This document shows, in pieces, positions 7,276 through 24,877 of a DNA stretch of 32,000 bases; positions within the stretch are counted from its first letter, which is position 1, and the number at the start of each line of letters is the position of its first letter. The notes beneath the pieces are model-generated. The model did no database searches and was not told where the DNA came from. It was given only the letters and a program-made list of their open reading frames with translations. The position numbers and the translations under genes were made by a program. Source of the DNA: an uncultured Alphaproteobacteria bacterium (lineage in GTDB: Bacteria; Pseudomonadota; Alphaproteobacteria; CAWJRW01); assembly GCA_963845385.1 (NCBI GenBank), contig CAWJRW010000006.1, positions 1,142,274 to 1,174,273 of the forward strand, in the 5' to 3' direction.

Positions 7276-7354
7276 GCCCCCTCCGCTTTGACTGCATTGG
7301 CCGAGAATGGCCGGGCCACGACCGGGTCGCGTGTGCGGCCTGAACGGGCCTGCC

Positions 7355-10300
7355 CTATTCGGCGGGCGCGCTTTGCAGTTGCGCGGGCTTGGCCTCGGGA
7401 AACTCGCGGTCGCGCTTGGCGATGTAGGTATAGAAGACCGGCACGACGAACAAGGTGAAGAGCGTGCCCACGGACATGCCCGAGAAGATCACGAGCCCGA
7501 TGGAGAAGCGCGCTTCCGCGCCCGCGCCGCTTGCGAGGAGAAGCGGCACGACGCCCACGACCATGGCCGCCGTGGTCATGAGGATCGGCCGCAAGCGCAC
7601 GCGCGCCGCCTCCTCGACCGCGGCGCGGATCGAATAGCCTTCGGCGCGCCGCTCGTTGGCGAATTCGACGATCAGAATGCCGTGCTTGGTGATGAGGCCG
7701 ACCAGCGTGATGAGCCCCACCTGCGTGTAGATGTTGAGCGTGGCGAGCCCGAGATTGAGAGGGACGAGCGCGCCGAAGATCGACAAGCGGAACCGCCATC
7801 ATGACGATGAGCGGGTCGCGGAAGCTCTCGAACTGCGCGGCAAGCACGAGATAAATGACAAGGACGGCAAGCCCGAAAGCAAGCGCCAGCGTGTTGCCCT
7901 CGCTGAGCGAAAGCCGCGCTTGGCCCATGAAATCGTCGAAGAAGCCGTCGGGCATCACTTGCGCGCCGGCCGCGCGCAGGCTTTCGATCGCCTGATCGAG
8001 CGTGACGCCGGGTGCGGGCGCGGCCGTGAGCGTCGCGGAATTGAGCTGATTGAACTGGTCGATCGTCCCGGGGCCCGCGAGAGTCTCGATCCGCGTCACG
8101 GCGGTGAGCGGCACCATCTTGCCGCTCATGCTGCGCACATAGTAGCCGCCCAAGCTTCCGGGGTTGAGCCGGTCGCGCGCGGGCGCCTGGGGAATGACGT
8201 CGTAGCTCCGGTTGTCACGGTCGAAGCGCGAGATGTAGTTCTCGCTCAAGAGCACATTCAGCGTGTTGCCGATATCGGCGACGGTCACGCCGAGGGCCGC
8301 CGCACGCGCGCGGTCGATGAGAATGCGTGCGCGCGGCAAATCGTAGCTCGCCGAATTCTGCACGAAGAAGAAGCGCCCGCTCGACATCGCCTTCATGCGC
8401 ACCTGCTCGGCGACTTCGTAAACCTCGGCCGGCGAGCGGACCGAGCGGATCACATACTGCACGCCGAAGCCGCCGGCGCCGGGAAGCGTGTTGAATGCGA
8501 AGACGGCCGTCTGCAGGCCAGCGACGTTCCCCGCCTTGCGCGCGATGTCCTGCATGACCTGGAATTGGGTCCGGCTCCGCTCGGACCAGGGCTTCAACAC
8601 CCAGCCCGAAATCGCGGCGTTCTCGCCGAAAAAGCCGGTGAACGCAAAGTGGGTCCTCGCCTCCGGCAGGTTTCCCACCGCGCGATCCAGTTGCTGCAGG
8701 TATGTCACCATGTAATCCGGCGTCGCATAGCGCGGCGCATAGCTGATCGCCGGGATGAAACCGATGTCCTCCGGCGGCGCAAGTTCCGAAGGAATGCGAC
8801 CGTAGAGGAAAACCGAAGTTGCGAGAATCAAGCCGAGCGCCGCGAGAACCGACCCGCGCATGCCGAGCACGATCGCGAGCGAGCGCGCATAATAGGCCGA
8901 CAGGCGGCTAAAGCTGCGATCGACGCGCGCCGCGAAACCCGCAGCTACGCTGCCGGGCTTTGCGCGCCGCAAGATGCGCGCCGACATCATGGGCGAGAGT
9001 GTCAGCGCGATGATGCCCGAGATGATGACCGCGCCTGCAAGCATGAAGGCGAACTCGCGAAAGAGCTTGCCCGTGAGCCCCTGGGTGAAGCCGATCGGCG
9101 CGTAGACGGCGGCGAGCGTGATGGTCATCGCGACGACGGGCCGGAAGAGCTCCCGCATCGCGTCGATGGCCGCTTGCGCGGCCTTCTTTCCCATCTCCAG
9201 GTGACGGTTGACGTTTTCGACCACCACGATGGCATCGTCGACGACGAGCCCGATGGCGAGCACCATGGCAAGCAGCGTGAGCAGATTGATCGAGTAGCCC
9301 AGCATGTAAAGCACGAACAAGGCGCCCACGAGCGAAAGCGGGATCGTCACCACGGGGATGAGCATGGAGCGCAGCGAGCCGAGGAAGACGAGGATCACCA
9401 GGACGACGATGATGACCGCTTCGCCGATCGTCTTGTAGACTTCGTCGATCGCCGACCGGATGGCATCGGCCTGATCGTAGAAAATTTCGGTTTCCATGCC
9501 CGGCGGCAGCTCGTGACGGATCGCCGGCAGCTCCGCGCGGACGGCGTCGGACAATGCGACCGCATTGGCGGAGGGCGTCGGTTGAATGACCATGGCCACG
9601 ACTTGCCGGTCGCCCGTTATCATACGCACATCATCGTTGGCGGCTCCGAGCTCGACATGCGCCACGTCGCGTAGCCGCACGACGTCGTCGCCCGAGCCGC
9701 GGATCGGCAGAGCGCCGAACGCATCAGGCGTCTTGAGAGTCGACTCCGCCTCGACCGAAAATGCCGTAAAGGCGTTCTCCGTCTTCCCGGGCGCCGAGAG
9801 AAAATTGGCGTTCCTGATGGCGGTTGCGACTTCGGCCGCCGTGACGTCGTGGGAGGCGAGCAGCACCGGATCGAGCCAGATGCGCATGGCGAAGTCTTGG
9901 CCGCCGATGATGGCGGCGTCCGCCACGCCCGGAACGGTCGCCATACGCGGCTGGATGACGCGCTTGATGTACTCCGTGATCTGAAGGTCGTTCATCCGGT
10001 CGCTGGTGAAGGAAAAAAACAAGAGGCCGTAAGCGCGGCCGGTTCCTTTGATGACGACCGGGTCGTAGGCGTCCTGCGGCAGATCGCGGCGCGCCTGCTG
10101 GGTCTTGGCGATCACCTCGGTGAGGGCGGTATCGGGATTGGTCCCGAGGCGCATCTGAACCGTGACCGTGCTCCGGCCCTGCACGCTCGAGGAAGTCACG
10201 TAATCCACGCCTTCGGCGCTCGCGGCGGCCTTGGCGATGGGTGTCCCGATGAAGCTTTGGACAAGCTCGGAGCTGGCGCCCGGATAGGCGGTCGTGATCG

Positions 10301-10436
10301 TGATGACCGTCTCGTCCACCTTCGGATATTGGCGGATCTCGAGATTGGTCGCCGATTGCGCGCCGAGCAGCAGGATGAGCAGGCTCAAGACCGTCGACAG
10401 CACCGGGCGGCGAATGAACACCGCGGCGAAATTCAC
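7355..10436 (-). CDS. RND (HAE1-type) efflux transporter permease subunit; apparent 1-nt frameshift near the C-terminus
   Basis: GTG start at 10434-10436 overlaps the adaptor gene stop (GTGA). N-terminus is MNFAAVFIRRPVLSTVLSLLILLLG, and typical AcrB-family TM and porter segments run throughout ORF 7272..10436 up to ...FESFRDPLIVMMAVPL. The conserved final TM bundle (SIFGALVPLNLGLATLNIYTQVGLITLVGLITKHGILIVEFANE...) is in ORF 7355..7786, with the shift near 7783-7790. The span is 3082 nt (3n+1). Confidence 0.92.
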
Positions 10437-12712: not shown

Positions 12713-13795
12713 ATGGGAAATCCGCAAGACGAGCCCGAAGCTTCGCCTTCGGCAGCGTCGCGGGAACCCGCTGAGCAGCCGGCAAATCCAGGTCCGGCGC
12801 AAGCGCCTGCAACGCGCGCAGACCTCAGGCCCAACCGCTCGCGCCCCGGCTCTCGCTTCGCCCGAAAGACGCCCGTGCGCCAAGACGCGCCAAGCGAGGA
12901 TGCGCCGGCGCAGGCCCCGCCCTGTCCGAACCTCACGCCGGCCCCATCGCCCGCCTCTGCGCCGACGGCGGCCGCACGCAAGATCGCCTTCATCGCGCGC
13001 CACAGCTTGGCGGTGCGCGCGACGCATTGGCTCAATGTCGTGATCCTCACGATCATGCTGATGAGCGGTCTGCAGATCTTCAACGCACACCCCGCGCTCT
13101 ATTGGGGCGCGCGCTCGGACTTCGAGCGTCCGCTGCTCGCGATGAAGGCCGAGACAGCCGAAGACGGCGCGCTTGTCGGCGTCACGACGCTGTTCGGTTC
13201 CCGTCTCGAGACGACAGGCGTTCTCGGCGTGTCGAACTACAGAGGAGAGCCCGAGGCACGCGGCTTTCCCGCCTGGATCACCCTTCCCGGCGCGCGTTGG
13301 CTCGCCATGGGACGGAGTTGGCATTTCTTCTTCGCCTGGCTCTTCGTGCTCAACGGCCTCGCCTATATCGCTTATGCGCTCATCCGCCGTCACCTGCAGA
13401 AGGATCTCCTGCCGACCAGAGACGAGCTTCGCCATATCGGGCGCACGATCGTGGATCACATGCGCTTCCGCTTCCACAGGGGCCGGGAAGCGCGTCACTA
13501 CAACGTGCTGCAGAAGCTCGCTTATCTCGGCGTCGTGTTCGTGCTGGGACCGCTCGTCGTGCTTACGGGGCTTTCCATGTCGCCCACCATCGACGCGGCC
13601 TTCCCGTGGCTGCCCGAGCTTTTCGGCGGACGGCAAAGCGCGCGCACCATTCATTTCCTCTGCGCGGCGGGCTTCGTCGGGTTCTTTCTGATCCATGTCT
13701 TCATGGTTCTGGTGTCGGGCGTGTGGAACAACATTCGCTCCATGATCACGGGGCGTTATGCGATCGACGTGACGGGCGACGGCGATGGACACTGA
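12713..13795 (+). CDS. cytochrome b561 / PhsC-like membrane di-haem subunit with an N-terminal Pro/Ala-rich extension
   Basis: ATG 12713 is preceded by GGAG (12703-12706). The first 88 or so residues are low-complexity P/A/S. The cytochrome b core follows: RHSLAVRATHWLNVVILTIMLMSGLQIF, SWHFFFAWLFVLNGLAYI, NVLQKLAYLGVVFVLGPLVVLTG, RTIHFLCAAGFVGFFLIHVFMV. It overlaps the next gene by 11 nt. Confidence 0.8.
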   Translation: MGNPQDEPEASPSAASREPAEQPANPGPAQAPATRADLRPNRSRPGSRFARKTPVRQDAPSEDAPAQAPPCPNLTPAPSPASAPTAAARKIAFIARHSLAVRATHWLNVVILTIMLMSGLQIFNAHPALYWGARSDFERPLLAMKAETAEDGALVGVTTLFGSRLETTGVLGVSNYRGEPEARGFPAWITLPGARWLAMGRSWHFFFAWLFVLNGLAYIAYALIRRHLQKDLLPTRDELRHIGRTIVDHMRFRFHRGREARHYNVLQKLAYLGVVFVLGPLVVLTGLSMSPTIDAAFPWLPELFGGRQSARTIHFLCAAGFVGFFLIHVFMVLVSGVWNNIRSMITGRYAIDVTGDGDGH

Positions 13796-14566
13796 GAAAA
13801 AAGGCGGCCGCATCATCGCGCGCCGGCGGTTTCTCGCGCGCAGCGCGGCGCTCACGGGAACGCTGCTCGTCGGCGGCTGCGGCGACGAGATGTCGAGCAA
13901 CGATCGGGTGCAACGCACGCTCGGCCGCGCCGAGGGACTCAACCGAAGGGTTCAGCGCTTTCTCGCGGGGCGCGGCGCGCTGGCGCGCGAATACACGATG
14001 GCCGATCTTTCGCCGGCCTTCAGGGCAAACGGCTCGACGCAGCCCGGCGATCCCGGCTACTTCATCCACGCGCTCAGCCAGTTTGCCAATTGGCGCCTCG
14101 AAGTGGGCGGCCTCGTGCGCAGGCCCATGCGTCTTTCGCTCGCGGAATTGCGCCTCCTGCCCGCGCGCACGCAAATCACGCGCCACGATTGCGTGGAGGG
14201 ATGGAGCTGCATCGGCAAATGGACCGGCGCGCGCTTGGGGGCGGTCCTCGATCTCGCGGAGCCCTTGCCCAACGCGCGATACGTGGTCTTCCACTGCGCC
14301 GACAGGCTGGGCGGAGCCAGTACTACGAGAGCATCGACTTTTTCGACGCCTATCACCCGCAGAGCATTCTCGCTTACGATATGAACGATCTGCCGCTCCC
14401 CATCGCCCACGGCGCGCCCCTGCGCGTCCGGCTCGAGCGCATGCTGGGCTACAAGATGGCGAAATACATCATGCGCATCGAGCTCGTCGAAAGCTTCGGA
14501 CATCTCGGTGACGGCAAAGGCGGCTATTGGGAAGACCGCGGCTACGAGTGGTATGCGGGGATCTGA
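13785..14566 (+). CDS. molybdopterin-dependent oxidoreductase (sulfite-oxidase / YedY-MsrP fold), Tat signal; apparent 1-nt frameshift
   Basis: Tat motif ARRRFLARSAALTG. RHDCVEGWSCIGKWTGARLGAVL and ARYVVFHCADRLGG lie in ORF 13785..14384. The reading then continues YYESIDFFDAYHPQSILAYDMNDLPLPIAHGAPLRVRLERMLGYKMAKYIMRIELV in ORF 14090..14566, with the shift near 14311-14322. The span is 782 nt (3n+2). Confidence 0.85.
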
Positions 14567-16015: not shown

Positions 16016-18517
16016 TTGGCGGAAAAGCCGCAGCGCGCTCGGGTGAGGAGAACAAAACCGGTGGCCCCATACAGCTCCGCGACCCCGGTGCGTACCAAGA
16101 GCACGCCGAACGAAATCCTGAGCTTCGTGCTCGTGCGTTTCGCCATTGTGGGCGGGGTGCTCGCGCTTGTGGGCTACATCCTGCGCGCGGATTCCTGGAC
16201 GCATCCCTCGCTGGGCAACATTCTCCTCGACATTTCCGACACGCTCTACAGGACGATCCGCATGTTCTTGCTGGGCGGCGACGTTGCGCGCGGCGAGGGT
16301 GACGGATCGTTGCGCTGGACCGTCTCCACAGGGCTCCTCCATGTGGCGCGATTTCTCGCGCCGGTGTCGTTCTACGGCATGCTCTTTCGGGTGCTCTTCG
16401 GACTGGTGCGGCCGCATCTTCAACGGCGCCGGCTTTCGCACTTGCGCAACCACACCATCGTTTGCGGCCTCGGCGAAACCGGACAGCAATTCGTGCTCAA
16501 CCTCATGCGCCGCGATCCGCAAGCCGCGCGCAGCACCGTCGCCATCGAAAGCCGCGACGTCGAGGCGGCGCGCGCCTTTGCGGCGCCGCTCGGCATCGAG
16601 CTCGTCGAGGCGAGCCCGCGCGAGGCGCAATCGCTCATCCGCGCCAATGTCAAGGACGCCGCAGGTCTCGTCATCGCGACCGACGACGACTCGGCCAATC
16701 TCGACATTGCGGCGCTCTTGCCGGGCCTGGTTGCGACACGCAGCGCCGAGGCTCCCCTCGAAGCGCATATGGAGGTGCGCAACGACACGCTCTTGAAGGA
16801 GCTCACCGACCGCGACGCGTTCTTGCGCCCGTCCGAGCGACTGGAGTTGCGCCCCTTCAACGTCGACGTGCTCGTCGCCCGCCGCTTCTTCGCCGAGCAT
16901 AATTTGATGGCTGAGGCCGAGCTGCGCGACCAGAAGCAGGTTCATTTCCTGTTCGTCGGCTTCGATTCCGTGGGGCTTCAAGTCATGTTGCAGCTCGCGC
17001 GCATCTCGCCCTATCGCAATTTCGCGCGGGCCCTTGTGACGCTCTTGGTCGCAGCGCCCGAGGATTGCCGCGAGGCCTTGAGCGCCACCTATCCCGAGCT
17101 CGCGGGGGGAAACGGCGAGGCGGATGCGGACAAGGTCGTGGACCTCAAGCTCGAGCGCTGGGCCGCCGAGCAGGACGGGCTGCCGCCCGCCTTGATGCGC
17201 GCGGTCGAAGCCGATGCCGAGATCACCGCCATCATCGTCTGCCTCGGCGAAGACGCGCTCAACGCGCGCACCGCGCTTCTCATCCGCTCGCTATCGCAAC
17301 GCGAGGCGCGCTGGCGGGCGCCCATCTACGTCCACCAGCGCGGCGTCGGCGGCCTTGGCCGCTTCGTGCAGGCGAGCACGGGCGCCAAGGACTTCGTCGA
17401 GATCATCGAGCCTTTCGGCATGCTCGACGAGATTTGCCGCGTGGAGGATCTCGGCGGGGAGAGCGACGCGGTGGCGAAAGTCTTGCACGAGGGCTATCTC
17501 GCGCTGCGCAGCGAAAGCGGATCGGGCGAGCCTTCGCCCAGCATGCGGCCATGGAACAGGCTCGACGAGATCTACCGCCGCGCCAACCGCCGCGCGGCCG
17601 ACCATATTCCCGTGAAGCTCGCAAGCGCAGGCTTTCACGTGACGGGCCGTCCCTTCGCGCGCCGGCGTGGAAGGCCTTTCGACCTCAGTCCCGATGAGCT
17701 GCGCGAGCTCGCGCGGCTCGAGCACGAATCCTGGATGAACGGCCAGAAGCTTGCGGGCTGGCGCCGCGGCGCGCTGCGCGACGAGCGGCGCCGCTATCAC
17801 GAGTTCCTTGTTCCCTTCGACGCGCTCTCCAAAGCCGTCCAGGACTACGACTACGATCAAGTGCGGGTCGTCTTGGAGAAGGTCGTGCGCGAAGCCGACG
17901 CCGACAGAGCAACGGTCTTTCGCGAACGCCGCATCGGGCTTTTCGCCGAGCCGCATTTGACCGAAGTGGAGACGGCCGCGGCTCTGCGCGATTTTTCCGA
18001 CCGCACGCTGCCGGCGTTGTTGTCGCGTTACGAGGGCTGCTGGCTCACCATCATGACGCGTCTTTCTCCCGGTGCCGAGCTTTCGCTGTGCGAGACGCTT
18101 GTTTCGACACTCGATGCGGCGGCCCGCAGGGCGTGGCGCTTGATCGTCGTGAGGGGCACTCCGGAAAGCATCGCCTTGCGGGGCGAGGCCGTGGCGCCGA
18201 CGGGTGCGAGCGAGCCCCGGCAAGACGCCATCCGCGCAGACGAGCTGGCTCGGCGTCTTGCCATCATCGCCCGCCCCGAGACCGAGTTTACCGTCGACCT
18301 CACCCCGCCCGCCTTGCGGCTCGAGGATTGGCTTCAAGACGCCTCGCTGCGGGCGCGGGGCGATGCGCGGGCGCGCGACTACCTCTTGCGCAAGTGCGAC
18401 GTGGTCGTCGAGATCCCGGGTAAGGCCGTGCAGAGCGGGGGCATAAGTGTTAATGCCGACGCCGGACGCAGCCCAAGGCCCGGCGCCGAAAGGCTTATTC
18501 GCCTTCCCTCGGGGTGA
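16016..18517 (+). CDS. 2TM channel-like / tandem TrkA_N (RCK-like) / RyR-domain protein with a C-terminal SLOG-like domain
   Basis: 833-codon ORF from TTG 16016. A better start is GTG 16061, preceded by AGGAGA 8 nt upstream. TM helices are ILSFVLVRFAIVGGVLALVGYIL and LLHVARFLAPVSFYGMLFRVLFGLV, flanking a pore-loop-like TLYRTIRMFLLGGD. Rossmann motif TIVCGLGETGQQF is followed by a second, degenerate one (VHFLFVGFDSVG). RyR-domain signatures are KVLHEGYLAL...RPWNRLDEIYRRANRRAADHIPVKL and LARLEHESWMNGQKLAGWRRG...YHEFLVPFDALSKAVQDYDYDQV. The C-terminal 180 or so residues resemble the N-terminal domain of the gene at 20096..21934. Confidence 0.85.
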   Translation: MAEKPQRARVRRTKPVAPYSSATPVRTKSTPNEILSFVLVRFAIVGGVLALVGYILRADSWTHPSLGNILLDISDTLYRTIRMFLLGGDVARGEGDGSLRWTVSTGLLHVARFLAPVSFYGMLFRVLFGLVRPHLQRRRLSHLRNHTIVCGLGETGQQFVLNLMRRDPQAARSTVAIESRDVEAARAFAAPLGIELVEASPREAQSLIRANVKDAAGLVIATDDDSANLDIAALLPGLVATRSAEAPLEAHMEVRNDTLLKELTDRDAFLRPSERLELRPFNVDVLVARRFFAEHNLMAEAELRDQKQVHFLFVGFDSVGLQVMLQLARISPYRNFARALVTLLVAAPEDCREALSATYPELAGGNGEADADKVVDLKLERWAAEQDGLPPALMRAVEADAEITAIIVCLGEDALNARTALLIRSLSQREARWRAPIYVHQRGVGGLGRFVQASTGAKDFVEIIEPFGMLDEICRVEDLGGESDAVAKVLHEGYLALRSESGSGEPSPSMRPWNRLDEIYRRANRRAADHIPVKLASAGFHVTGRPFARRRGRPFDLSPDELRELARLEHESWMNGQKLAGWRRGALRDERRRYHEFLVPFDALSKAVQDYDYDQVRVVLEKVVREADADRATVFRERRIGLFAEPHLTEVETAAALRDFSDRTLPALLSRYEGCWLTIMTRLSPGAELSLCETLVSTLDAAARRAWRLIVVRGTPESIALRGEAVAPTGASEPRQDAIRADELARRLAIIARPETEFTVDLTPPALRLEDWLQDASLRARGDARARDYLLRKCDVVVEIPGKAVQSGGISVNADAGRSPRPGAERLIRLPSG

Positions 18518-18644: not shown

Positions 18645-19994
18645 ATGACCGAGCAGGGCCAAGCGTCGATCGCGTTCATCAGTTACGCCACCCAAGACCG
18701 CGACAAGGCGTTCGAGATTTGCCGCCAGCTCGAGACGCGCGGGCAAAAATGCTGGATCGCGCCGCGCGACGTGCGCGCGGGTCGCGAATACGCCGACGAG
18801 CTCGTGAGCGGCATCGAGCGCGCGCAGGCGCTCGTGCTTGTCCTCTCGAGCGCGGCGAACGATTCCATCTTCGTGCGCCGCGAGGTCGAGCGCGCGGTCA
18901 GCAAAAAGAAGCCGGTCTTTCCCATCCGCATCGAGAACGTGGCGCCCTCGCCTTCGCTTGAATTCTTCGTCTCTTCGACGCACTGGATCGACGCCTGGTC
19001 GGGCGGCTTGTCCGATCACATGGACCTGCTCGCCCGCGATCTTTCGGGCGGCACGTTCGTCATCGCCGAGCCTTCGCCGTTGAAGAAGCAAATTCGCCGC
19101 TGGCAGAACCTCTTGCGTGGTCCCATGCTGATCTATGCCGGCGTCGCCGCGGCGCTCGTCATCGGCGGCATCATCTTCCTCACCCGGGCGCCGAGCGAGG
19201 AGGCGCTCTACGACCGCCAATCCTGGCAGCAGGCCGCGCTCGCCGACACCGTCGACGCCTACAGCACTTATATCCGGCTCGTTCCCGAGGGGCGGCACGT
19301 GCGCGAGGCCAAGCGCCGCGTCGAAACGATGAAGGAAGCCGAAGCCGAGCGCGCCATCCGCACTCAGATCCAAGGGATGCTCGCGAGCTTGGGCTACGAC
19401 GCCGGGCCCGCCGATAACCCGATGAACGACAAGCTCGAAAGCGCGGTGCGGGAGTTTCAGGCGGACAACGCGCTCGGCGTGAACGGCAAAATGACGCCCG
19501 ATCTCGCTGCCGAGCTCAACAAGGTGCGCGGCGCGAAAGCGCCGGAAATCGCCGCGCGCGAACAAGCCTTGGTCAAGAAATCGCGCGTGGCCTATGAGAA
19601 CTTCTTGAGCCGCTTTGCCACCGGCCGCATGGCCGACGACATCCGCGCGCGGCTCGCAAGCTGTCGCACCGAGACCGGGCCCACGACGCGCCAGAAGACG
19701 AGCCAAGTCTCCGCGCAGGGACGCGGCAGCGCAGGCGCCGGCGGGAGCGCGTGTCAGATCGCCGAGAACAATGCGCGGGCCGAGATTCAGTCCGCTTGTC
19801 CGGGCGGCGTCCTGGGCCGGGTCGCGGTAAACTCTTCGCCGGACGCGGGCTCTGCGGCCCTTGGCATCATGGGCAGCATTCTCGGCGGCGCCACGAACCG
19901 CAACGTCAATGTGCAGGCGGCCTGCACGGCGACAGCGAGTGCCAACTGCACCCGCGTCGTAACCGAATCGGCGACCCGGGAAGTCTGCGACTGA
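18645..19994 (+). CDS. TIR-domain protein, single-pass membrane anchor, periplasmic PG_binding_1 domain and Cys-rich tail
   Basis: ATG 18645 is preceded by GAGGGGGA. TIR_2-type motifs: IAFISYATQDRDKAFEI, GQKCWIAPRDVRAGREY, ALVLVLSSAANDSIFVRREVERA (conserved Glu codon at 18882-18884), PVFPIRIE, THWIDAW. A positively charged KKQIRRWQNLLRG precedes the TM helix MLIYAGVAAALVIGGIIFL. PG-binding motif: IQGMLASLGYDAGPADNPMNDKLESAVREFQADNALGVNGKMTPDLAAEL. The last 110 residues contain six Cys. Confidence 0.9.
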   Translation: MTEQGQASIAFISYATQDRDKAFEICRQLETRGQKCWIAPRDVRAGREYADELVSGIERAQALVLVLSSAANDSIFVRREVERAVSKKKPVFPIRIENVAPSPSLEFFVSSTHWIDAWSGGLSDHMDLLARDLSGGTFVIAEPSPLKKQIRRWQNLLRGPMLIYAGVAAALVIGGIIFLTRAPSEEALYDRQSWQQAALADTVDAYSTYIRLVPEGRHVREAKRRVETMKEAEAERAIRTQIQGMLASLGYDAGPADNPMNDKLESAVREFQADNALGVNGKMTPDLAAELNKVRGAKAPEIAAREQALVKKSRVAYENFLSRFATGRMADDIRARLASCRTETGPTTRQKTSQVSAQGRGSAGAGGSACQIAENNARAEIQSACPGGVLGRVAVNSSPDAGSAALGIMGSILGGATNRNVNVQAACTATASANCTRVVTESATREVCD

Positions 19995-20095: not shown

Positions 20096-21934
20096 CTGCA
20101 TCCGCGCCTCACCTTACGCATCGGCGTCACGGGCCATCGCCTCGGCGGCGAGCGGCTTTCGCAAGACCATCTGCCGGCGATCGAGAAAGCGGTTGCACAC
20201 ATTCTCCTCGTCATCCGCGGCGCCCTCGATGAAGTGCTGATAAAGAACCACGAAATCTTCGCCGCCGCGCCGCCGCTCATCCGCTTCGTCTCGCCGCTCG
20301 CCGAGGGCGCCGATCAGTCGGCGGCCAAGGCCGCGCTCGCCGCAGGCGTCGAGCTCGAATGTCCGCTTCCTTTTGCACGCCGTGATTACGCGCGCGACTT
20401 CAAGAACTTCTTTCGTCGCGCCGCGAATTCTATCGTCTGGTGCGCGCCGCGTCGGCGGTGTTCCAGCTTCCGGGGCGCCGCCGCGACGAGGAGGAAGCCT
20501 ACGAGACGGTGGGCCTGATCACGCTGCGCCAGAGCGATCTCGTTGATCGCAGTCTGGGACGGCAACCTCAAACAGCCTCGGCGCGGCGGCACGGCGGAAA
20601 TGGTGATCAAGGCCTTCGAGAGCGGCATTCCCGTGCTCTGGCTGCACCCCGCGCATCCGGAGCCCCGGCTGCTCGAAAAGGAGGACGCAGCCTTCGGCAC
20701 GACGCTGTGGGAGCTCGTCGCCCAAGGCGGGCAAGACATCGACGATGCGGGCATTCAAACGCTCGTCCACGGTCTCGCCGCCCCGCCGGGCAGCTTCAAG
20801 AGCGAGCGGAATCCTATACAGAGGGAAGCGCGCGCGCGCCTTTGCGCCTTTCTCGGCGAGACGGAAAAATCCGCGCCGCGCCTATGGCTCGCCTATCCGC
20901 TGCTCATCCGCCTCCTCGGAAACAAGCGCGGCGCGCCGCAGCGTCAATCGGCAAGCTTGCGCGAGACCCTCTCCGCGCCGCCGGCCAAGATTCGCAATCT
21001 CGACGCCGCGCGCGCGCTGATCGATACGCGTTACAGCCGCCCCGATCGCCTGAGCGTCCATCTCGGCCAGGTCTATCGCTCGGGCTATGTCATGAATTAT
21101 CTGCTCGCCGCGCTCGCCGTTTTCTTAGCGCTCGCCGGCATCGTCTGGGACCACGACCTCAAGCCGATATGGACCGATCTCGAGCTCGCCGTCATCTCCT
21201 TCATCCTGGCCGTGACCCTGATCGGGAACCGTTTGCGCTGGCATGATCGCTGGCTCGATTATCGCCAGCTCGCCGAGCAGCTTCGCCATTTGCGCTTCCT
21301 GTGCTTTGCGGGCGCACGAACCGAAGACGCGCGCGTGCCCCATGTCAGCGAGGCGATCAAGCCCGGGTCGGCCTGGGCCAGTTGGTATTACCGCGCGAGC
21401 TTGCGCGAATTGCCCATGCTGCATGCGCGCGTCGACCACGCCTATGTCGGCATGCTGAGCGAAGCCGTGGTGAGCGAGATCGAGGAGCAGGCGCATTACC
21501 ACGCGCTCAACGCGCATCGGCTCAAGCATGTCCACGAGGCCCTGCACTATGCGGGAAATTTCTTCTTCGTGCTCACCGCCGTGACCTGTCTCGCGTTCGC
21601 CACGTTTGCGGCGGCGAACAGCGCCTGGCACTTTGCGGGCGCCACGCTCCTGAACTGGGTCATGGCGAGGGTAAGCTTGCTCGGCGGGCTTTTGCCCGCG
21701 ATCGGTGCCGCGCTTTACGGCATCCGCATCCAAGGCGACTTCAAGGCCGCAGCCGAACGCTCGGCCGTGGTCGCGGCGCGCCTGTCGTCCCTCATGCGCG
21801 ACCTCGGCGGAAAACATCCCACCTCATTCGCCAAGGCCGCGCGCATCGCCGACGAGGCCGCCAATATCATGACGGCCGAGCTCTCCGATTGGAGCATGAT
21901 CTTTCGCGAGAAGCCGCTGTCGCTGCCTGCGTGA
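20096..21934 (+). CDS. SLOG (LOG/YpsA-like) domain fused to two SLATT/DUF4231-like 2TM modules; two compensating frameshifts; start codon unresolved
   Basis: Frame A (ORF 19751..20518): LRIGVTGHRLGGERL...LIRFVSPLAEGADQSAAKAALAAGVELECPLPFARRDYARDFKNFF. Frame B (ORF 20440..21246), about 20425-20540: EFYRLVRAASAVFQLPGRRRDEEEAYETVGLITLRQSDL. Frame C (ORF 20543..21934): IAVWDGNLKQPRRGGTAEMVIKAFESGIPVLWL. Then come TM pairs YVMNYLLAALAVFLALAGIVW / LELAVISFILAVTLIG followed by RWHDRWLDYRQLAEQLRHLRF. A second unit follows: EQAHYHALNAHRLKHV, FFFVLTAVTCLAFATFAA / VSLLGGLLPAIGAALYGI. There is no ATG, GTG or TTG in any frame between 19995 and 20125. CTG 20096 is used here only as a placeholder start. Confidence 0.75.
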
Positions 21935-23338
21935 GGGAGCGGCGCTCACGGTGTCCAGTCCGCCCCGAGGCTCGGCCTCACGCGCAAGCCCAATTCTTGC
22001 CAAACGTCGAGCCAAGCCAAGACGGCGGGCGCCGCCCACCCCGCCATCGCATGGGCTTCCGCTAGCTCCTCGCATCTCTTCCGAATTCAGTCCCGAGCCT
22101 CCGAAGGAGATCCCCTTGCCGATATAGTTCGTCTTTCCGACAAGCGTGACAAACTCTTCGCCCACGATTTGCGGCAGACGCGAACCGCCCGATGCCGTGT
22201 TGTTGTCGTAGATGCAATTGTAGGAAAAGCTCGCAAGCGGCGTGGCGGCGCCCGAAGAATAGGATGGGCTTGCCAGCCCGCCCGAGGCGGCAACGCCTGC
22301 GCCCACATTTCGCGCGATGACATTGTTTTCAAAGCTCGGCTCGATGAAGCCTCCTGGAATGTAGCCGCCTGCCCCGTAGGACGAGCTGTAGCCGTCTTGC
22401 TGTCCCGGGAGTCCCGAACTGCCGAGCTGGCTCGCGCCCGCGCCGTAAGTGAGCCCGTCGTCCATGCTCTCATTAAGGCTCGACTGCGCCGCGAAGTCCG
22501 CAAATTCGTCGACCGGCTTCTCGGAATAGATGAGCTGGACGCCGGTGCCATTCTTGTAAACGAGATTTGACGAATACGTGCCCCCGCCATTGATATTGAC
22601 AATGCCTGTTCCCGCGTTCCGATGAATGAGGTTTTGGGCGGCATAGAGCTGGGCGCCGCCGCTCACGACGAGCGCGACCACATTGTCGTCGATGTCGTTG
22701 CCGGCGACGAAATGCTGTCCCGCACCAGTGTTGCGCAGGACGATGCCCACCTTCGACCTTGCGATGTAATTGCCATCGATAGACGACTTCGGGCCGCGAA
22801 TGACGACCGCGTCCGTATCGGGCGTGCCGACAACGGTGCTTCTGCTGAGCACGAAGTCCGACGCGATGACGTCGATGCAGGGCGCATTCTGGTCTGAGCT
22901 CGCGAGCACGACGAGGCCGCGGATCCTGACCGTGCCCTGCGTCACCTTCACGCGAATGCAGGGATTGGCCGCGTTCGTGGCGGAGAGCCGCACCGTTCCG
23001 GAGCGAACCGCGACGAGGGTCAGAGGTTTCCTGATGACCAGGTTGCCCTCGTATTTCCCCGCCTCGATGCGCACCACGCCCGAGGGCTTGGTCCTGTCGA
23101 TCGCATTCTGAATGCTGTCGCCCGGCTTGACCCTGGTTTCGCTTTCGCCGCCGGCATAGGGAGAGGGATAGAACGGAAAGTCGGGCGGCGCGGGTACCGC
23201 ATCCGAGCAGCACGCGGCAGCCGCCATCGAGCTCTTGACGATTAAGAGCGCGAGCAACAACAGCGGCAGGAAAGAGCGCCTTCTCGCATGCCGCATAAGA
23301 GCAAGCCGTTCGCGCATGACCTGTTCCCCCAACTTCAT
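21824..23338 (-). CDS. secreted right-handed parallel beta-helix repeat protein (C-terminal boundary doubtful)
   Basis: ATG 23338 is preceded by AGAGG 7 nt upstream. Signal peptide is RRRSFLPLLLLALLIVKSSMAAAA. Repeated beta-helix rungs are visible (GNLVIRKP, VRIRGLVVLASS, AVVIRGPKSSIDGNYI, VGIVLRNTGAGQHFVAGNDI, ALVVSGGAQLYAAQNLI, GTGIVNINGGG, GTGVQLIY), followed by a Gly/Ser-rich region. The last 80 or so codons (below about 22060) are Arg/Gly/Ala-rich and overlap the convergent gene by 111 nt. The true stop may therefore lie near 22060-22090. Confidence 0.7.
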   Translation of the reverse strand: MKLGEQVMRERLALMRHARRRSFLPLLLLALLIVKSSMAAAACCSDAVPAPPDFPFYPSPYAGGESETRVKPGDSIQNAIDRTKPSGVVRIEAGKYEGNLVIRKPLTLVAVRSGTVRLSATNAANPCIRVKVTQGTVRIRGLVVLASSDQNAPCIDVIASDFVLSRSTVVGTPDTDAVVIRGPKSSIDGNYIARSKVGIVLRNTGAGQHFVAGNDIDDNVVALVVSGGAQLYAAQNLIHRNAGTGIVNINGGGTYSSNLVYKNGTGVQLIYSEKPVDEFADFAAQSSLNESMDDGLTYGAGASQLGSSGLPGQQDGYSSSYGAGGYIPGGFIEPSFENNVIARNVGAGVAASGGLASPSYSSGAATPLASFSYNCIYDNNTASGGSRLPQIVGEEFVTLVGKTNYIGKGISFGGSGLNSEEMRGASGSPCDGGVGGARRLGLARRLARIGLAREAEPRGGLDTVSAAPSRRQRQRLLAKDHAPIGELGRHDIGGLVGDARGLGE

Positions 23339-23356: not shown

Positions 23357-24877
23357 CTAGCGCGCGTCATCCATGGGTTTCGCTCGCGGAGAAGCCGTCT
23401 CTGCCCCTTGCTTCGGACAAGTGGCGCTGGCTTTCGCACTGCTTTCATCGGACCAATTCACTTCCTTGAGCCTGCAGGCGATCTCCTGCTTGTTCGGATA
23501 TTCGGCCTCGCGCGCGGCCAGGAAATAGGTCGCGGCCTGGCCGAAATCGACGCGGACGCCGAGCCCGTCGCGATACATGATCCCGAGATTGTAGAGCGCG
23601 TAAGGATGCCGCTGGTTCGCAGCCTTTTCGAACCAGGTGCGCGCACGGGGATAGCTCACCGGCACGCCATAGCCGTAGTGGTACATGTAGCCGAGCGTGA
23701 ATTGGCTCGGCGCAAATCCGTTCACGGCCGCGGTCCGGATGAGCTTGACGGCTTGAGGCGGCATGAGCTCGCCCGTGACCGGGCCGCCGAGGGACGCCTG
23801 ATAGGCGAGCGTCGCCTTGCGCGTCGTGGGCCCGCACGCATTGTCGATTTCACCGCGATAGAAGCCAACCTCCCGCAACGCTCTCTGGAACGACGCGCAC
23901 TCGATCTTGCCGATGCGGGCGAGCGCGGCTTCCTTGAGAGAGTCGACGCGCGACTCGTCGCTGTAGGGCTTGGGATAGACCTCGAAGGGCGGCTCCCACA
24001 GCTCGGCCATCCAATCGGCCGCGTCCTTGATCTCGCCGCAGTAGTGCTCGTAGCTCGCCCCGGACGACGCCGGAGGACTTCCGCTCTGCGGCGACGTACA
24101 GGACTTGCCATTCACGAGCTGCTCGACCTTTTTTTTCGCGGTCGCGGCATATTTGTAGCCGAGCTCCTCGGCGATCATGAAATAGGCAAGCCCGTCGATG
24201 GGATCTTCTTCAAAAACGCTGGCCGACGGGGATCGCGCCACCGCGTCGTTCGGGTACCGGCAGAGAACACTGTCGGCGACGGCCGGCACTTCGTTCGTCG
24301 CCGGGTTCCAATTCAACATGCGCGGGCAAGCGAAATAGATCTCGCCCAACCGGTAAAAGCCCTCCGCACCCCGGCTCGCCAGAATGTAGATGATGCGCTG
24401 CTCGGCATCGCGCCTCTGCGTCGAGGTCATTTGGTTGTAGATCCGCGGCATGTCGTTCTTGAAGCGATCGGAAAGGCGCGTGCTCAGTTCCTGGGTGAGG
24501 ACCGTCAGGGTGCCCTGGGATCGCTGTTTGTTGATGAGGGCGAGGTACGTCCACACATAGGCTTCGACCACATCCCGGGGTACATACTGCAGCGCCAGCT
24601 TCCTGCCGCTCGCGCTCTTCCCCGTCATCGCGGTCTTTGCCGGAAAATACAGATCAGCGAGCTGGAGCTGGGCGTCGATGTCGTCGTTGACCCAGGCCGC
24701 GTCGCGCCAGAGCGAGATGGCGCGCGCATAGTCGCCCTGCTCGAAGGCGCGCGCACCCTCGGCATATTCGGCGGCGGGGGCCGGAGTGGCCCGCGTCAGG
24801 CAGGCTAGGAGAGCGAGAAGGACGCCCGCGCGGCGCAAGACGCACAGGACGCCAGCCTTTGGATCGCTGTCCCCCAA
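23357..24877 (-). CDS. secreted Sel1-like repeat (TPR-family) protein with an internal PG_binding_1 domain
   Basis: Signal peptide LRRAGVLLALLACLTRATPAPAAE. The start is TTG 24877 or the in-frame TTG at 24838. Sel1-type repeats: EGARAFEQGDYARAISLWRDAA and GYMYHYGYGVPVSYPRARTWFEKAANQRHPYALYNLGIMYRDGLGVRVDFGQAATYF. PG-binding motif: FQRALREVGFYRGEIDNACGPTTRKATLAYQASLGGPVTGEL. Confidence 0.85.
   Translation of the reverse strand: MGDSDPKAGVLCVLRRAGVLLALLACLTRATPAPAAEYAEGARAFEQGDYARAISLWRDAAWVNDDIDAQLQLADLYFPAKTAMTGKSASGRKLALQYVPRDVVEAYVWTYLALINKQRSQGTLTVLTQELSTRLSDRFKNDMPRIYNQMTSTQRRDAEQRIIYILASRGAEGFYRLGEIYFACPRMLNWNPATNEVPAVADSVLCRYPNDAVARSPSASVFEEDPIDGLAYFMIAEELGYKYAATAKKKVEQLVNGKSCTSPQSGSPPASSGASYEHYCGEIKDAADWMAELWEPPFEVYPKPYSDESRVDSLKEAALARIGKIECASFQRALREVGFYRGEIDNACGPTTRKATLAYQASLGGPVTGELMPPQAVKLIRTAAVNGFAPSQFTLGYMYHYGYGVPVSYPRARTWFEKAANQRHPYALYNLGIMYRDGLGVRVDFGQAATYFLAAREAEYPNKQEIACRLKEVNWSDESSAKASATCPKQGAETASPRAKPMDDAR

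What the first reader, a model, noticed from the sequence alone, without database searches (positions are those of the whole stretch)
16016..18517. MthK-like 2TM + RCK/TrkA_N protein carrying a RyR domain, encoded next to a TIR enzyme
**Seen.**
- Two TM helices flank a pore-helix-like segment TLYRTIRMFLLGGD (LLGGD at 16268-16282). By eye this resembles a degenerate TVGYGD K+ filter.
- A GLGETG Rossmann domain follows, then a second degenerate Rossmann domain.
- A clear RyR-domain signature follows (about 17459-17881).

**Established.**
- 2TM pore plus RCK domains is the MthK/Kch-type ligand-gated channel layout.
- In animals, cADPR is a reported modulator of ryanodine receptors. TIR-family enzymes such as SARM1 produce cADPR.
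- The ligand of bacterial RyR domains is unknown.

**Inference (speculative).** Adjacency of a RyR-domain channel-like protein to a TIR NADase suggests an NAD-derived nucleotide may gate this protein. That would make it an ion-flux effector.
Basis: partly seen in the sequence, partly recalled or inferred. Interest (0 to 1): 0.75.

Follow-up and report, generated by a model that had tools for sequence, protein, structure and literature searches.

The report
TIR-linked membrane protein with RyR sensor domain
This gene encodes a channel-shaped bacterial membrane protein whose ryanodine-receptor-type domain keeps the residues that phage proteins use to bind cyclic ADP-ribose signals, and it sits repeatedly next to TIR enzymes, so it is probably a receptor or effector for a TIR-made signal, although pore activity is not shown.

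Summary
An 818-833 aa ORF (probable start GTG 16061) has two TM helices, a TrkA_N Rossmann domain, a second RCK-like Rossmann domain and a Pfam RyR domain. A TIR_2 gene follows it.

Corrections and additions:
- 'LLGGD' is specific to the nearest clade. The family consensus is LQLFxLESG. No pore homology is detectable by sequence.

The protein belongs to a large uncurated cellular family (over 4,000 cluster representatives at E<1e-30).
- Of 35 non-redundant family loci, 16 have a TIR gene within 3 kb. That is 17 TIR ORFs in 155 kb near the family gene and none in 146 kb of farther flank.
- All these TIRs keep the catalytic Glu. They are fused to varied sensor-type domains.
- The RyR domain keeps the residues H570, W573, R588, H595 and D612. 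Two 2026 preprints show these contact 2'/3'cADPR or cADPR in phage RyR-domain proteins.

Most likely this is a Thoeris-like module in which the TIR product acts on this RCK-RyR membrane protein. Ion flux is inferred, not shown. I rate it a new variant of a known kind, interest about 0.75.

The parts
16061..18517 (+). Gene for the 2TM-RCK-RCK-RyR-SLOG protein. It is 818 aa from GTG 16061; the longest ORF starts at TTG 16016 and gives 833 aa. Residue numbers in this report use the 833-aa form.
   Evidence: ORF. P0001 is 818 aa and 100% identical. RBS GAGGAG lies at 16046-16051.
16106..16180 (+). TM helix 1 (residues 31-55), preceded by an Arg/Lys-rich N-terminus that is probably cytoplasmic.
   Evidence: Hydropathy. 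AF2 helix 31-55.
16205..16282 (+). Conserved amphipathic helix in the TM1-TM2 loop, ending in LLGGD (residues 64-89). The family motif is D..Y.[TS]LQLF.LESG. It is a candidate re-entrant or pore helix, but this is unproven.
   Evidence: AF2 helix 64-85 with low pLDDT. Column frequencies across 142 members. No match to known pores.
16328..16411 (+). TM helix 2 (about residues 105-132), starting with the near-invariant L..ARFLAP motif. It runs straight into the first Rossmann domain.
   Evidence: Hydropathy. AF2 helix 97-142. A111, R112 and P116 are conserved in more than 129 of 142 members.
16451..16915 (+). RCK1 / TrkA_N Rossmann domain with GLGETG and an acidic residue after strand 2 (VAIE). 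A nucleotide-binding site of KTN type is likely.
   Evidence: Pfam TrkA_N 148-235, E 5e-11. Foldseek hits GsuK, TrkA and MthK.
16937..17425 (+). Second, degenerate Rossmann (RCK2-like) domain, residues about 308-470.
   Evidence: AF2 alternating strand-helix pattern with pLDDT 85-93. The tandem-RCK proteins GsuK, TrkA and CASTOR are the best structural matches.
17459..17890 (+). RyR Repeat12-like four-helix domain (residues 482-625). Pocket residues are H570, W573, R588, H595 and D612.
   Evidence: Pfam RyR E 4e-9. PDB RyR R12 chains match. Foldseek hits 6uhi and 9l9b. Residue conservation. Ligand residues of RyDEP and RyR Tad.
17915..18430 (+). C-terminal YpsA-like SLOG-fold domain (residues about 634-805). 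Its subfamily motifs (IGL.GH, T.LAPG.D, GGT.E) are partly eroded in this protein (IGLFAEP, SPGAEL, SGGISV).
   Evidence: Domain model with pLDDT 82. Foldseek best hit YpsA 2nx2, E 2.7e-4, then PpnN/LOG. hhalign to the neighbour gene's N-terminal domain gives probability 83.5%, E 8e-6. Alignment.
18645..19994 (+). TIR_2 protein of 449 aa: cytoplasmic TIR (aa 11-140, 18675-19064) with the catalytic Glu in FVRREVE, one TM (aa 156-184, 19110-19196), and a periplasmic PG_binding_1 domain (aa 239-289, 19359-19511) followed by a Cys-containing tail.
   Evidence: Pfam. Hydropathy. Glu aligned with BcThsB WVRYEI.
20105..21934 (+). SLOG-like + 4TM SLATT (DUF4231) gene. In this window it is interrupted by two frameshifts (about 20400 and about 20541), which create an in-frame TGA at 20516-20518. 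The start codon is not fixed.
   Evidence: Three-frame translation. DNA. Comparison with the intact L001 orthologue. Pfam DUF4231. NCBIfam SLATT_1 E 4e-8, below the cut-off. Four TM segments.

Best explanation
The ORF is an inner-membrane protein of a large, uncurated bacterial family. Its layout is two TM helices around a conserved loop helix, then a tandem RCK (TrkA_N-type) module like GsuK or TrkA, then a RyR Repeat12-type nucleotide pocket. This subfamily adds a C-terminal YpsA-like SLOG domain.

It works with the adjacent TIR protein as a Thoeris-like signalling pair.

1. The TIR protein has a cytoplasmic TIR domain tethered by one TM helix to a periplasmic peptidoglycan-binding domain. 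On activation it converts NAD+ into an ADP-ribose-derived signal, probably a cADPR isomer.
2. The signal binds the RyR pocket (H570/W573/R588/H595/D612), and possibly the SLOG domain.
3. Binding changes the RCK assembly and opens or perturbs the 2TM membrane part. Ion leak, depolarisation and growth arrest or death follow.
4. The SLOG-4TM SLATT gene next door is a second membrane effector of the same signal.

Shown here: the domain architecture, the conserved pocket residues, the catalytic Glu of the TIRs, and the strong, rearranging TIR linkage.

Inferred: the identity of the signal, the direction of signalling, pore formation, and the physiological trigger.
For: **Architecture.** Pfam TrkA_N and RyR. 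AF2 model with pLDDT 75.7. Foldseek top hits GsuK, TrkA, CASTOR and MthK, then RyR R12. SLOG fold of the C-terminal domain.

**Family size.** 4,249 cluster representatives at E<1e-30; the top 150 cover TM to RyR.

**Linkage.**
- The only neighbour family shared across many loci is TIR.
- 16 of 35 non-redundant loci have a TIR within 3 kb: 17 TIR ORFs in 155 kb near the family gene and 0 in 146 kb farther away.
- By form, that is 12 of 19 long-form and 4 of 16 short-form loci.
- Pfam confirms TIR_2 in 13 of the partners.
- The TIR lies upstream, downstream or convergent. It is fused to PG_binding, WD40, RHS or other regions.
- In L002 the SLOG-SLATT gene moves to the other side of the target. 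L042, a 27%-identity short form, again has SLOG-SLATT plus a TIR fragment.

**TIR competence.** The catalytic Glu is conserved in all partner TIRs.

**Ligand pocket.**
- RyDEP residues H75/W78/H100/D117 and RyR Tad residues H129/W132/K147/H154/D171 contact 3'cADPR or ADPR.
- The target has H570/W573/R588/H595/D612 at identical spacings (+3, +18, +25, +42).
- Among 150 aligned RyR segments (149 family proteins plus the target), these positions are H 149, W 133, K/R 138 and D 113.

**Precedents.** Thoeris type VII (TIR + SLATT, cADPR), type X (TIR + ion channel) and a predicted '4TM SLOG' effector.
Against: - No sequence evidence shows that the N-terminal part is a pore. There is no Pfam hit and no PDB profile hit. 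hhalign against the KcsA, MthK, NaK and NavAb pores scores about as shuffled controls do. AF2 confidence there is low, and no multimer model could be made.
- The window clade deviates from the family loop motif (R82, G87), and its SLOG motifs are eroded.
- About half of the family loci show no TIR within reach, including the 45%-identity relative L003/L004.
- The locus lies among housekeeping genes (leuA, smpB, RND pump), not in a defence island.
- PADLOC has no model for the protein.
- The RyR dyad H570/D612 equals the RyDEP catalytic dyad, so the domain could degrade the signal rather than sense it.
- The third gene is disrupted in this assembly.
Confidence: 0.55

Rival explanations
1. Signal terminator or buffer. 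The RyR domain acts like phage RyDEP or RyR Tad but is host-encoded. It hydrolyses or sequesters the TIR-made cADPR isomer at the membrane, to set a threshold or switch the response off. The real killing effectors would be SLOG-SLATT, patatin or others.
For: - H570 and D612 correspond to the RyDEP catalytic dyad H75/D117, and RyR-domain proteins can be glycosidases or sponges.
- Other effector-like genes occur in some loci: SLOG-SLATT in the window, L001, L002 and L042, and patatin in L007, L011 and L015.
Against: - Several TIR-linked loci show no other recognisable effector next to the pair: L008, L014, L017/L018, L028 and L033.
- A hydrolase or sponge does not need two TM helices and a conserved tandem RCK module.
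- The dyad is also conserved in non-catalytic sponges, so it does not indicate catalysis.
Confidence: 0.15
2. NAD-level sensor. The TIR acts as an NAD+-depleting enzyme. The RCK Rossmann site senses the fall in NAD+ or the rise in ADPR/ADP, as NAD+ and ADP modulate GsuK. The RyR and SLOG domains are accessory.
For: - The GLGETG motif with an acidic residue after strand 2 fits a KTN nucleotide site.
- The best structural matches include GsuK bound to ADP and to NAD (4gx1, 4gx2).
- The RyR R12 domain of RyR1/RyR3 also binds ADP or ATP (abstracts).
Against: - The most conserved soluble feature across the family is the RyR pocket. Its demonstrated ligands in microbes are TIR products.
- The TIR partners carry sensor-type fusions (WD40, PG-binding, RHS), which is typical of signal-generating TIRs.
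Confidence: 0.12
3. Membrane-anchored scaffold or enzyme, not a channel. The two TM helices only tether a cytoplasmic nucleotide-sensing assembly, which acts on another target or organises the membrane-bound TIR protein.
For: - The pore signature is absent and no pore homology is detectable.
- The TIR partner in this clade is itself membrane-anchored.
Against: - The TM1-TM2 loop helix and the ARFLAP motif are among the best-conserved parts of the family. That is unexpected for a passive anchor.
- TM2 runs directly into RCK1, as in MthK and GsuK.
Confidence: 0.13
4. Ordinary housekeeping K+ channel or transport regulator, with TIR adjacency as coincidence.
For: - The chromosomal context is housekeeping genes, with synteny conserved in L001.
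- NCBIfam gives only weak TrkA-type hits.
Against: - There are 17 TIR ORFs within 3 kb against none farther out, across loci with different gene orders and in different phyla.
- There is no K+ filter.
Confidence: 0.05

Closest known systems
GsuK / MthK / TrkA-type RCK-gated K+ channels and gating rings
   Same: - A 2TM membrane part is followed directly by RCK (KTN) Rossmann domains.
- The tandem RCK is as in GsuK and TrkA.
- These proteins are the best structural matches of the whole model.
- Pfam TrkA_N hits the first Rossmann domain.
   Different: - There is no TVGYG filter and no Ion_trans_2 signal.
- The loop motif is LQLFxLESG in the family and LLGGD here.
- There is no TrkA_C domain.
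- Extra RyR and SLOG domains follow the RCK pair.
Phage RyR-domain anti-Thoeris proteins RyDEP and RyR Tad (Pfam PF02026)
   Same: - Same domain family, with the same pocket residues at the same spacing.
- Both phage proteins are functionally tied to TIR-made cADPR isomers.
   Different: - The phage proteins are small and soluble, and they destroy or sequester the signal.
- Here the domain is one module of a roughly 820-aa host membrane protein.
- The gene is encoded beside the TIR gene, and none was found on viral contigs.
Thoeris systems: type X (TIR + ion channel ThsK), type VII (TIR + SLATT ThsH, canonical cADPR) and the predicted '4TM SLOG' configuration
   Same: - A TIR gene with the catalytic Glu lies next to membrane effector(s) carrying nucleotide-sensor domains.
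- The third gene of the module is SLOG + 4TM SLATT.
   Different: - The TIR is only distantly related to those tested. The best match is 26% identity to the Streptomyces '4TM SLOG' TIR.
- No TIR with the WIAPR motif occurs in the stored part of their tables.
- The TIR carries a TM helix and a periplasmic PG-binding domain.
- The module has three genes and is not in a defence island.
- An RCK-RyR effector is not named in the texts or tables I could search.
Animal ryanodine receptors (Repeat12 domain) with cADPR modulation, and TRPM channels (MHR1/2 region)
   Same: - A RyR R12-type pocket is attached to a membrane protein of channel-like layout.
- W573 aligns with RyR1 W882. The alignment is; that W882 is a dantrolene-site residue is from my own knowledge.
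- TIR enzymes such as SARM1 make cADPR.
- A SLOG-like module in the same protein recalls TRPM MHR1/2 (own knowledge). The TRPM7 MHR hit is only weak.
   Different: - The membrane domain is unrelated: 2TM here against six TM helices per subunit in RyR.
- There is one R12-like unit per chain.
- The RCK module is absent from RyR and TRPM.
- Common descent of anything beyond the individual domains is not shown.

Membership tests
2TM K+ channel pore (Ion_trans_2; KcsA/MthK/GsuK type) | Selectivity-filter signature T-[VI]-G-[YF]-G after a pore helix | tested here: not met
   The window has MFLLGGD. Across 142 family members the consensus is LQLF[VT]LESG. There is no Pfam hit at E<=10.
2TM K+ channel pore (Ion_trans_2; KcsA/MthK/GsuK type) | Detectable sequence or profile similarity of the TM region to known pores | tested here: not met
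   A profile of 35 N-terminal regions against the PDB gives only chance claudin hits, E>=0.19. hhalign against KcsA, MthK, NaK and NavAb scores 8-15, about as shuffled controls do.
2TM K+ channel pore (Ion_trans_2; KcsA/MthK/GsuK type) | TM1 - short helix - loop - TM2 topology with cytoplasmic ends | tested here: inconclusive
   Hydropathy and AF2 secondary structure fit this topology. pLDDT is only 45-65, and re-entry cannot be judged from a monomer.
2TM K+ channel pore (Ion_trans_2; KcsA/MthK/GsuK type) | Tetramer with a central conduction path; ion conduction | not testable with these tools
   No multimer prediction or experiment is available.
RCK/KTN (TrkA_N) gating-ring proteins | Rossmann fold with GxGxxG, matched by PF02254 above its threshold | tested here: met
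   TrkA_N scores 43.3 bits against a cut-off of 23.8. Foldseek hits GsuK, TrkA, CASTOR and MthK with E 6e-9 to 1e-5.
RCK/KTN (TrkA_N) gating-ring proteins | TrkA_C (PF02080) C-terminal lobe | tested here: not met
   No PF02080 hit. A second Rossmann-like domain follows instead.
RyR Repeat12 domain (PF02026), RyDEP / RyR Tad type | Pfam RyR match above the gathering score, and four-helix fold | tested here: met
   37.1 bits against a cut-off of 27.4. PDB R12 chains match at E 2e-9. Foldseek hits 6uhi and 9l9b. Helices at 482-499, 518-537, 559-579 and 606-623.
RyR Repeat12 domain (PF02026), RyDEP / RyR Tad type | Ligand-contacting H-x2-W ... K/R ... H ... D at +3, +18, +25, +42 | tested here: met
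   H570, W573, R588, H595 and D612 are present. Residue identities in the phage proteins come; family conservation. The mapping rests on spacing and on the alignment to RyR R12, not on a direct alignment to RyDEP.
RyR Repeat12 domain (PF02026), RyDEP / RyR Tad type | Binding or hydrolysis of 2'/3'cADPR or cADPR | not testable with these tools
   Needs ITC, SPR or TLC with purified domain.
SLOG superfamily (YpsA/LOG/DprA-like) | Rossmannoid SLOG fold | tested here: met
   The domain model has pLDDT 82. The best PDB match is YpsA 2nx2 (E 2.7e-4, TM 0.53/0.60), followed by PpnN and YvdD of the LOG family. YpsA is a SLOG protein (PMC6459960).
SLOG superfamily (YpsA/LOG/DprA-like) | Conserved Gly-rich and GGT.E-type nucleotide-binding motifs | tested here: not met
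   The subfamily consensus has IGL.GH, T.LAPG.D and GGT.E. The window protein has IGLFAEP, SPGAEL and SGGISV. No Pfam SLOG model hits it.
Thoeris-type TIR signalling system | TIR gene with catalytic Glu encoded next to the putative effector, linkage conserved in relatives | tested here: met
Thoeris-type TIR signalling system | Location in defence islands or recognition by defence-system models | tested here: not met
   PADLOC has no hit for the target or for the SLOG-SLATT gene, and only generic TIR hits for the TIR gene. The window neighbours are leuA, smpB, SLT, RND, MFS and similar genes. Some relatives do sit beside STAND, caspase or patatin genes.
Thoeris-type TIR signalling system | Phage-triggered signal production and effector activation; anti-phage protection | not testable with these tools
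   Experimental.

The most novel reading that the evidence does not exclude
Bacteria have a widespread class of ligand-gated membrane channels in which a ryanodine-receptor Repeat12-type pocket, mounted on an RCK ring, is the receptor for a TIR-made cyclic ADP-ribose isomer. This would be a prokaryotic counterpart of the 'TIR/cyclase makes cADPR, which acts on RyR' axis of animals. It would provide a small, tractable system to ask whether R12 domains couple cADPR binding to channel gating. In this clade the TIR is wired to a periplasmic peptidoglycan-binding domain. The module would then convert cell-wall damage, from phage or otherwise, into ion flux.
Probability: 0.3. Interest if true: 0.9.

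Novelty: new variant of a known kind. Interest (0 to 1): 0.75.

Why it matters
- **Animal RyRs.** Whether and where cADPR acts on ryanodine receptors has been disputed for decades. In 2026 phage RyR-domain proteins were shown to bind and cleave TIR-made cADPR isomers. A host-encoded, channel-shaped protein that carries the same pocket and is genetically coupled to TIR enzymes would give a simple bacterial system for testing whether an R12 pocket can transmit cADPR binding to a membrane gate.
- **Bacterial immunity.** It would add an effector class (RCK-RyR, with or without SLOG) to TIR signalling. The family is large and currently annotated only as 'hypothetical' or 'TrkA family'.
- **New triggers.** The TIR proteins with periplasmic peptidoglycan-binding domains hint at envelope-damage sensing, which has not been described for Thoeris-type systems in the papers I could search.

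Tried and rejected
- **Word-indexed protein search.** It found only 10-11 relatives, even with profiles. The third search added nothing new.
- **The search for related loci.** The first genome scan, with A3, found no confirmed locus. A4, using the NRRAADH motif, worked. This biases the sample towards proteins that carry that motif.
- **Viral contigs.** No relatives found.
- **P0001.** The relatives are mostly Alphaproteobacteria MAGs.
- **Pore homology.** By eye, LQLFVLES resembles the NavAb TLESW P-loop, but the score is no better than for shuffled sequences, so I do not claim it.
- **C-terminal domain.** A profile against PDB sequences gave nothing. Only the fold search identified it.
- **Literature.** Burroughs et al. 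2015 (the SLOG/SLATT definitions) is not held. One literature search was wasted on the word 'slog'. Table S1 of the Thoeris survey is truncated in the library, so the absence of RyR, TrkA or WIAPR entries there is weak evidence.
- **Operon signals.** The promoter and terminator scan gave nothing above the shuffled expectation.


Full report
**1. What is in the sequence**

The + strand carries an ORF at 16016-18517.
- An identical database protein, P0001, is 818 aa.
- A GAGGAG sits nine bases before GTG 16061. The gene is therefore probably 16061-18517.
- Residue numbers below use the 833-aa ORF, to stay comparable with the finding.

- Hydropathy gives two TM segments, at about 31-55 and 105-132.
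- An AlphaFold2 model built on nine homologues has mean pLDDT 75.7. It places a helix at 64-85 between the two TM segments. Confidence in this region is low (45-65).

The soluble domains also check out.
- Pfam finds TrkA_N at 148-235 (E 5e-11) and RyR at 564-621 (E 4e-9). Both are above their gathering scores.
- Solved RyR Repeat12 domains match the same stretch, down to E 2e-9.
- The next gene, 18645-19994, is TIR_2 + one TM helix + PG_binding_1.

**2.

*LLGGD is not a conserved filter.*
- In 142 family members the equivalent columns read LQLF[VT]LESG. G-G-D occurs only in the closest relatives.
- The N-terminal 145 residues hit no Pfam model, even at E<=10.
- A 35-sequence profile of this region finds no channel in the PDB.
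- hhalign against the KcsA, MthK, NaK and NavAb pores scores like shuffled controls.
- What does hold is the layout: TM1, a conserved amphipathic loop helix, a short loop, then TM2 starting with the near-invariant ARFLAP motif and running straight into a Rossmann domain.
- The whole-model Foldseek search puts GsuK, TrkA, the CASTOR gating ring, MthK and Slo1 on top (E 6e-9 to 1e-4). These proteins are channel-shaped, with a tandem RCK module as in GsuK and TrkA. A pore in the target is not demonstrated.

*There is a fifth domain, at residues 634-805.*
- Modelled alone with 18 homologues, it reaches pLDDT 82.
- Its best PDB match is B. subtilis YpsA (2nx2, E 2.7e-4, TM 0.53/0.60). PpnN and other LOG-family proteins follow. 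This is the SLOG superfamily (YpsA as SLOG: PMC6459960).
- A profile of this domain aligns with the N-terminal domain of the third gene. The probability is 83.5%, E 8e-6, through the shared T.LAPG.D and GGT.E motifs.
- In the window protein these motifs are eroded: IGLFAEP, SPGAEL, SGGISV.

*There is a third linked gene, at about 20105-21934.*
- It encodes that SLOG-like domain plus four TM helices.
- These match DUF4231 in Pfam and SLATT_1 in NCBIfam (E 4e-8, below the cut-off).
- In this window the gene is broken by two frameshifts about 140 nt apart. They create an in-frame TGA at 20516-20518.
- The 67%-identity syntenic locus L001 has a continuous gene there.
- The RND pump and the Mo-oxidoreductase gene in the window also show frameshifts relative to L001. 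Assembly error is therefore as likely as decay.

**3. The family**

- An exhaustive profile search finds 4,249 cluster representatives at E<1e-30. The best 150 all cover TM through RyR.
- The common form is about 590-600 aa: 2TM, two Rossmann units, RyR.
- Some members add more RyR repeats. P0013 has five.
- About 14 of the top 150 are long forms (713-835 aa) with the SLOG domain, like the target.
- NCBIfam and PADLOC have no model for the family.
- Database names are 'hypothetical protein' or 'TrkA family protein'.
- No relative was found on viral contigs.

**4. Genomic linkage**

I collected 56 loci from exact-protein look-ups and from genome and metagenome scans. Two more came from Sinorhizobium plasmid records; these were examined separately and are not in the tally below. 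I searched the six-frame ORFs of the 56 loci and the window with locally built HMMs.

*TIR is the recurrent neighbour.*
- All-against-all comparison of neighbouring ORFs shows one family shared by many loci: TIR.
- After collapsing family proteins at 70% identity there are 35 loci. Of these, 16 have a TIR ORF within 3 kb.
- That is 17 TIR ORFs in 155 kb of near flank against none in 146 kb of farther flank.
- Long forms: 12 of 19. Short forms: 4 of 16, and many of the short-form contigs have very short flanks.
- Pfam confirms TIR_2 in 13 of the partners.
- All partners keep the glutamate that aligns with the catalytic Glu of B. cereus ThsB. The ThsB sequence is from Table S1; the catalytic role of that Glu is from my own knowledge.

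*The TIR partners differ in placement and in fused regions.*
- The TIR lies upstream, downstream or convergent to the family gene.
- TM + PG_binding: window, L001, L002, L008.
- WD40 propellers: L012, L017, L018.
- RHS repeats: L014.
- Other fused regions occur too.

*Other recurrent neighbours.*
- In L002 the SLOG-SLATT gene lies on the other side of the target.
- L042, a short form with 27% identity, again has a SLOG-SLATT gene plus a TIR fragment. The SLOG-SLATT gene there has a weak Pfam YAcAr SLOG hit.
- A patatin phospholipase is a second recurrent neighbour, in L007, L011 and L015.
- A DUF4062-NACHT-TPR protein (L016) and a STAND-TPR protein (the Sinorhizobium plasmids) are adjacent in further cases.

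*Caveats.*
- About half of the loci, including the 45% relative L003/L004, show no TIR.
- The sample is biased by the NRRAADH search motif.
- The window itself lies among housekeeping genes: leuA, smpB, SLT, RND, MFS.

**5. The RyR pocket**

Two 2026 preprints bear directly on the ligand.
- RyDEP, from a mycobacteriophage, is a PF02026 protein. It binds 2'cADPR and 3'cADPR and cleaves them, and its homologues act as nanomolar sponges. H75 and D117 contact the terminal ribose, W78 stacks on adenine, and H100 holds the phosphates (PMC13232231).
- RyR Tad, from a Pectobacterium phage, binds 3'cADPR with a Kd of 43 nM. It also binds 2'cADPR and canonical cADPR. The residues involved are H129/W132, K147/H154 and K170/D171 (10.64898/2026.06.04.730250).

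The target matches this pocket.
- It has H570, W573, R588, H595 and D612, at exactly these spacings: +3, +18, +25, +42.
- In the alignment to RyR R12 domains the same columns pair up.
- Among 150 aligned RyR segments (149 family proteins plus the target), position 570 is H in 149. Position 573 is W in 133 and F or Y in 16. Position 588 is K or R in 138. Position 612 is D in 113 and N in 23. H595 is variable overall but invariant in the long forms.
- The first half of the unit (H491, Y494, W513, N524, R525, K534) is equally conserved.

The pocket is therefore under strong constraint, and its only demonstrated microbial ligands are TIR products.

**6. Most likely mechanism**

*Shown:*
- a channel-shaped RCK protein with a conserved R12 pocket and a SLOG fold;
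- catalytically competent-looking TIR neighbours with sensor-type fusions;
- statistically strong linkage that is independent of gene order.

*Inferred:*
- On activation of its sensor part, the TIR makes an ADPR-derived signal. In this clade the sensor part is a periplasmic peptidoglycan-binding domain.
- The signal binds the RyR pocket, and perhaps the SLOG domain.
- The RCK assembly then changes the 2TM part, and ions leak.
- SLOG-SLATT is a parallel effector.

I put this at about 0.55.

*Rivals:*
- The RyR domain degrades or buffers the signal. The RyDEP dyad H/D is present, but sponges have it too (0.15).
- The RCK site senses NAD+ depletion or ADP, as in GsuK (0.12).
- The protein is a membrane-tethered scaffold or enzyme rather than a pore (0.13).
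- The adjacency is coincidence (0.05).

**7. Comparison with what is known**

A Thoeris survey (10.64898/2025.12.03.692087) describes the following:
- type VII: TIR + SLATT, with canonical cADPR as the signal;
- type X: TIR + 'ion channel', with the signal unknown;
- a predicted '4TM SLOG' effector that gave no protection in E. coli.

The window's TIR + SLOG-4TM pair fits that last configuration. Several things differ.
- The TIRs of type X belong to another cluster.
- The window TIR is only 26% identical to the nearest listed TIR.
- I found no mention of RyR, TrkA or RCK effectors in the text or in the stored, truncated tables.
- Among all papers holding both 'RyR' and 'Thoeris', the two I read concern phage proteins only.

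The module is therefore best filed as a new variant of a known kind. It is a Thoeris-like TIR signalling system with an undescribed effector architecture (RCK-RyR with or without SLOG) and, in this clade, an unusual envelope-facing TIR.

It is not a demonstrated member of the K+ channel family. The filter and pore-homology tests were not met.

**8. Verdict**

The TIR-to-nucleotide-to-RyR-domain link is now well founded. The ion-flux step and the 'degenerate K+ filter' are not.
- Interest is 0.75. The finding offers a tractable bacterial test of whether an R12 pocket couples cADPR-type ligands to a membrane gate, and it assigns a probable role to a family with thousands of members.

Noticed in passing
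window 20380-20560: The SLOG-4TM SLATT gene reads in one frame up to about 20400, in another frame for about 140 nt (EEAYETVGLITLRQSDL, conserved with L001), then returns to the first frame at about 20541. This leaves an in-frame TGA at 20516-20518. It is either a very recent pseudogene or two assembly indels.
   Followed up: partly
window 7272-10436 (-) near 7785; window 13785-14566 (+) near 14320: The RND efflux pump and the Oxidored_molyb gene each switch reading frame relative to the intact L001 orthologues (tblastn split hits). This suggests that the assembly carries indel errors.
   Followed up: partly
window 21824-23338 (-) and 23357-24877 (-): Directly after the three-gene module lie a right-handed beta-helix (NosD-like) protein and a Sel1-repeat protein with a second PG_binding_1 domain. 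Both are conserved in the same place in L001. A link to the peptidoglycan-binding TIR protein is possible but untested.
   Followed up: no
L007 10463-11695; L011 5422-6681; L015 5814-7007: A patatin-like phospholipase is a second recurrent neighbour of long-form family members. It lies on either side of the family gene. L001 also has a patatin gene about 10 kb downstream.
   Followed up: partly
L014 3225-7889; L012 3868-7170; L017 4286-6424; L018 10113-12251: The TIR partners can be very large, carrying RHS repeats (1,555 aa) or WD40 propellers (about 710-1,100 aa). These look like sensor-TIR proteins.
   Followed up: partly
L016 3712-6027; L057 4124-5704 / L058 3617-5704 (Sinorhizobium meliloti plasmids): Family members without a TIR_2 neighbour can sit next to a DUF4062-NACHT/STAND-TPR protein or an AAA/DUF7779-TPR STAND protein. 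In the plasmid loci the N-terminus of that protein looks DUF4062-like by eye. DUF4062 may be TIR-related (my recollection, not tested).
   Followed up: partly
L011 6702-9905 (-): A WD40 + caspase (Peptidase_C14) protein of 1,068 aa lies just beyond the patatin gene, next to a long-form family member.
   Followed up: no
P0013, P0020, P0023, P0017 (family representatives): Some family members carry two to five extra RyR repeats after the core (Pfam counts 5 RyR stretches in P0013). This suggests multivalent ligand binding.
   Followed up: no
window 16235-16285 and family alignment A5: The family loop motif Y.[TS]LQLF[VT]LES resembles by eye the P1-helix/filter segment of bacterial sodium channels (NavAb ...YTLFQVMTLES...). 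The hhalign score (13.3) is within the range of shuffled controls, so this is only a lead.
   Followed up: yes
window 29559-31865 (-): An NRPS-like AMP-binding / PCP / thioesterase ORF begins at position 153 of the AMP-binding profile. It is therefore N-terminally truncated or frameshifted as well.
   Followed up: no
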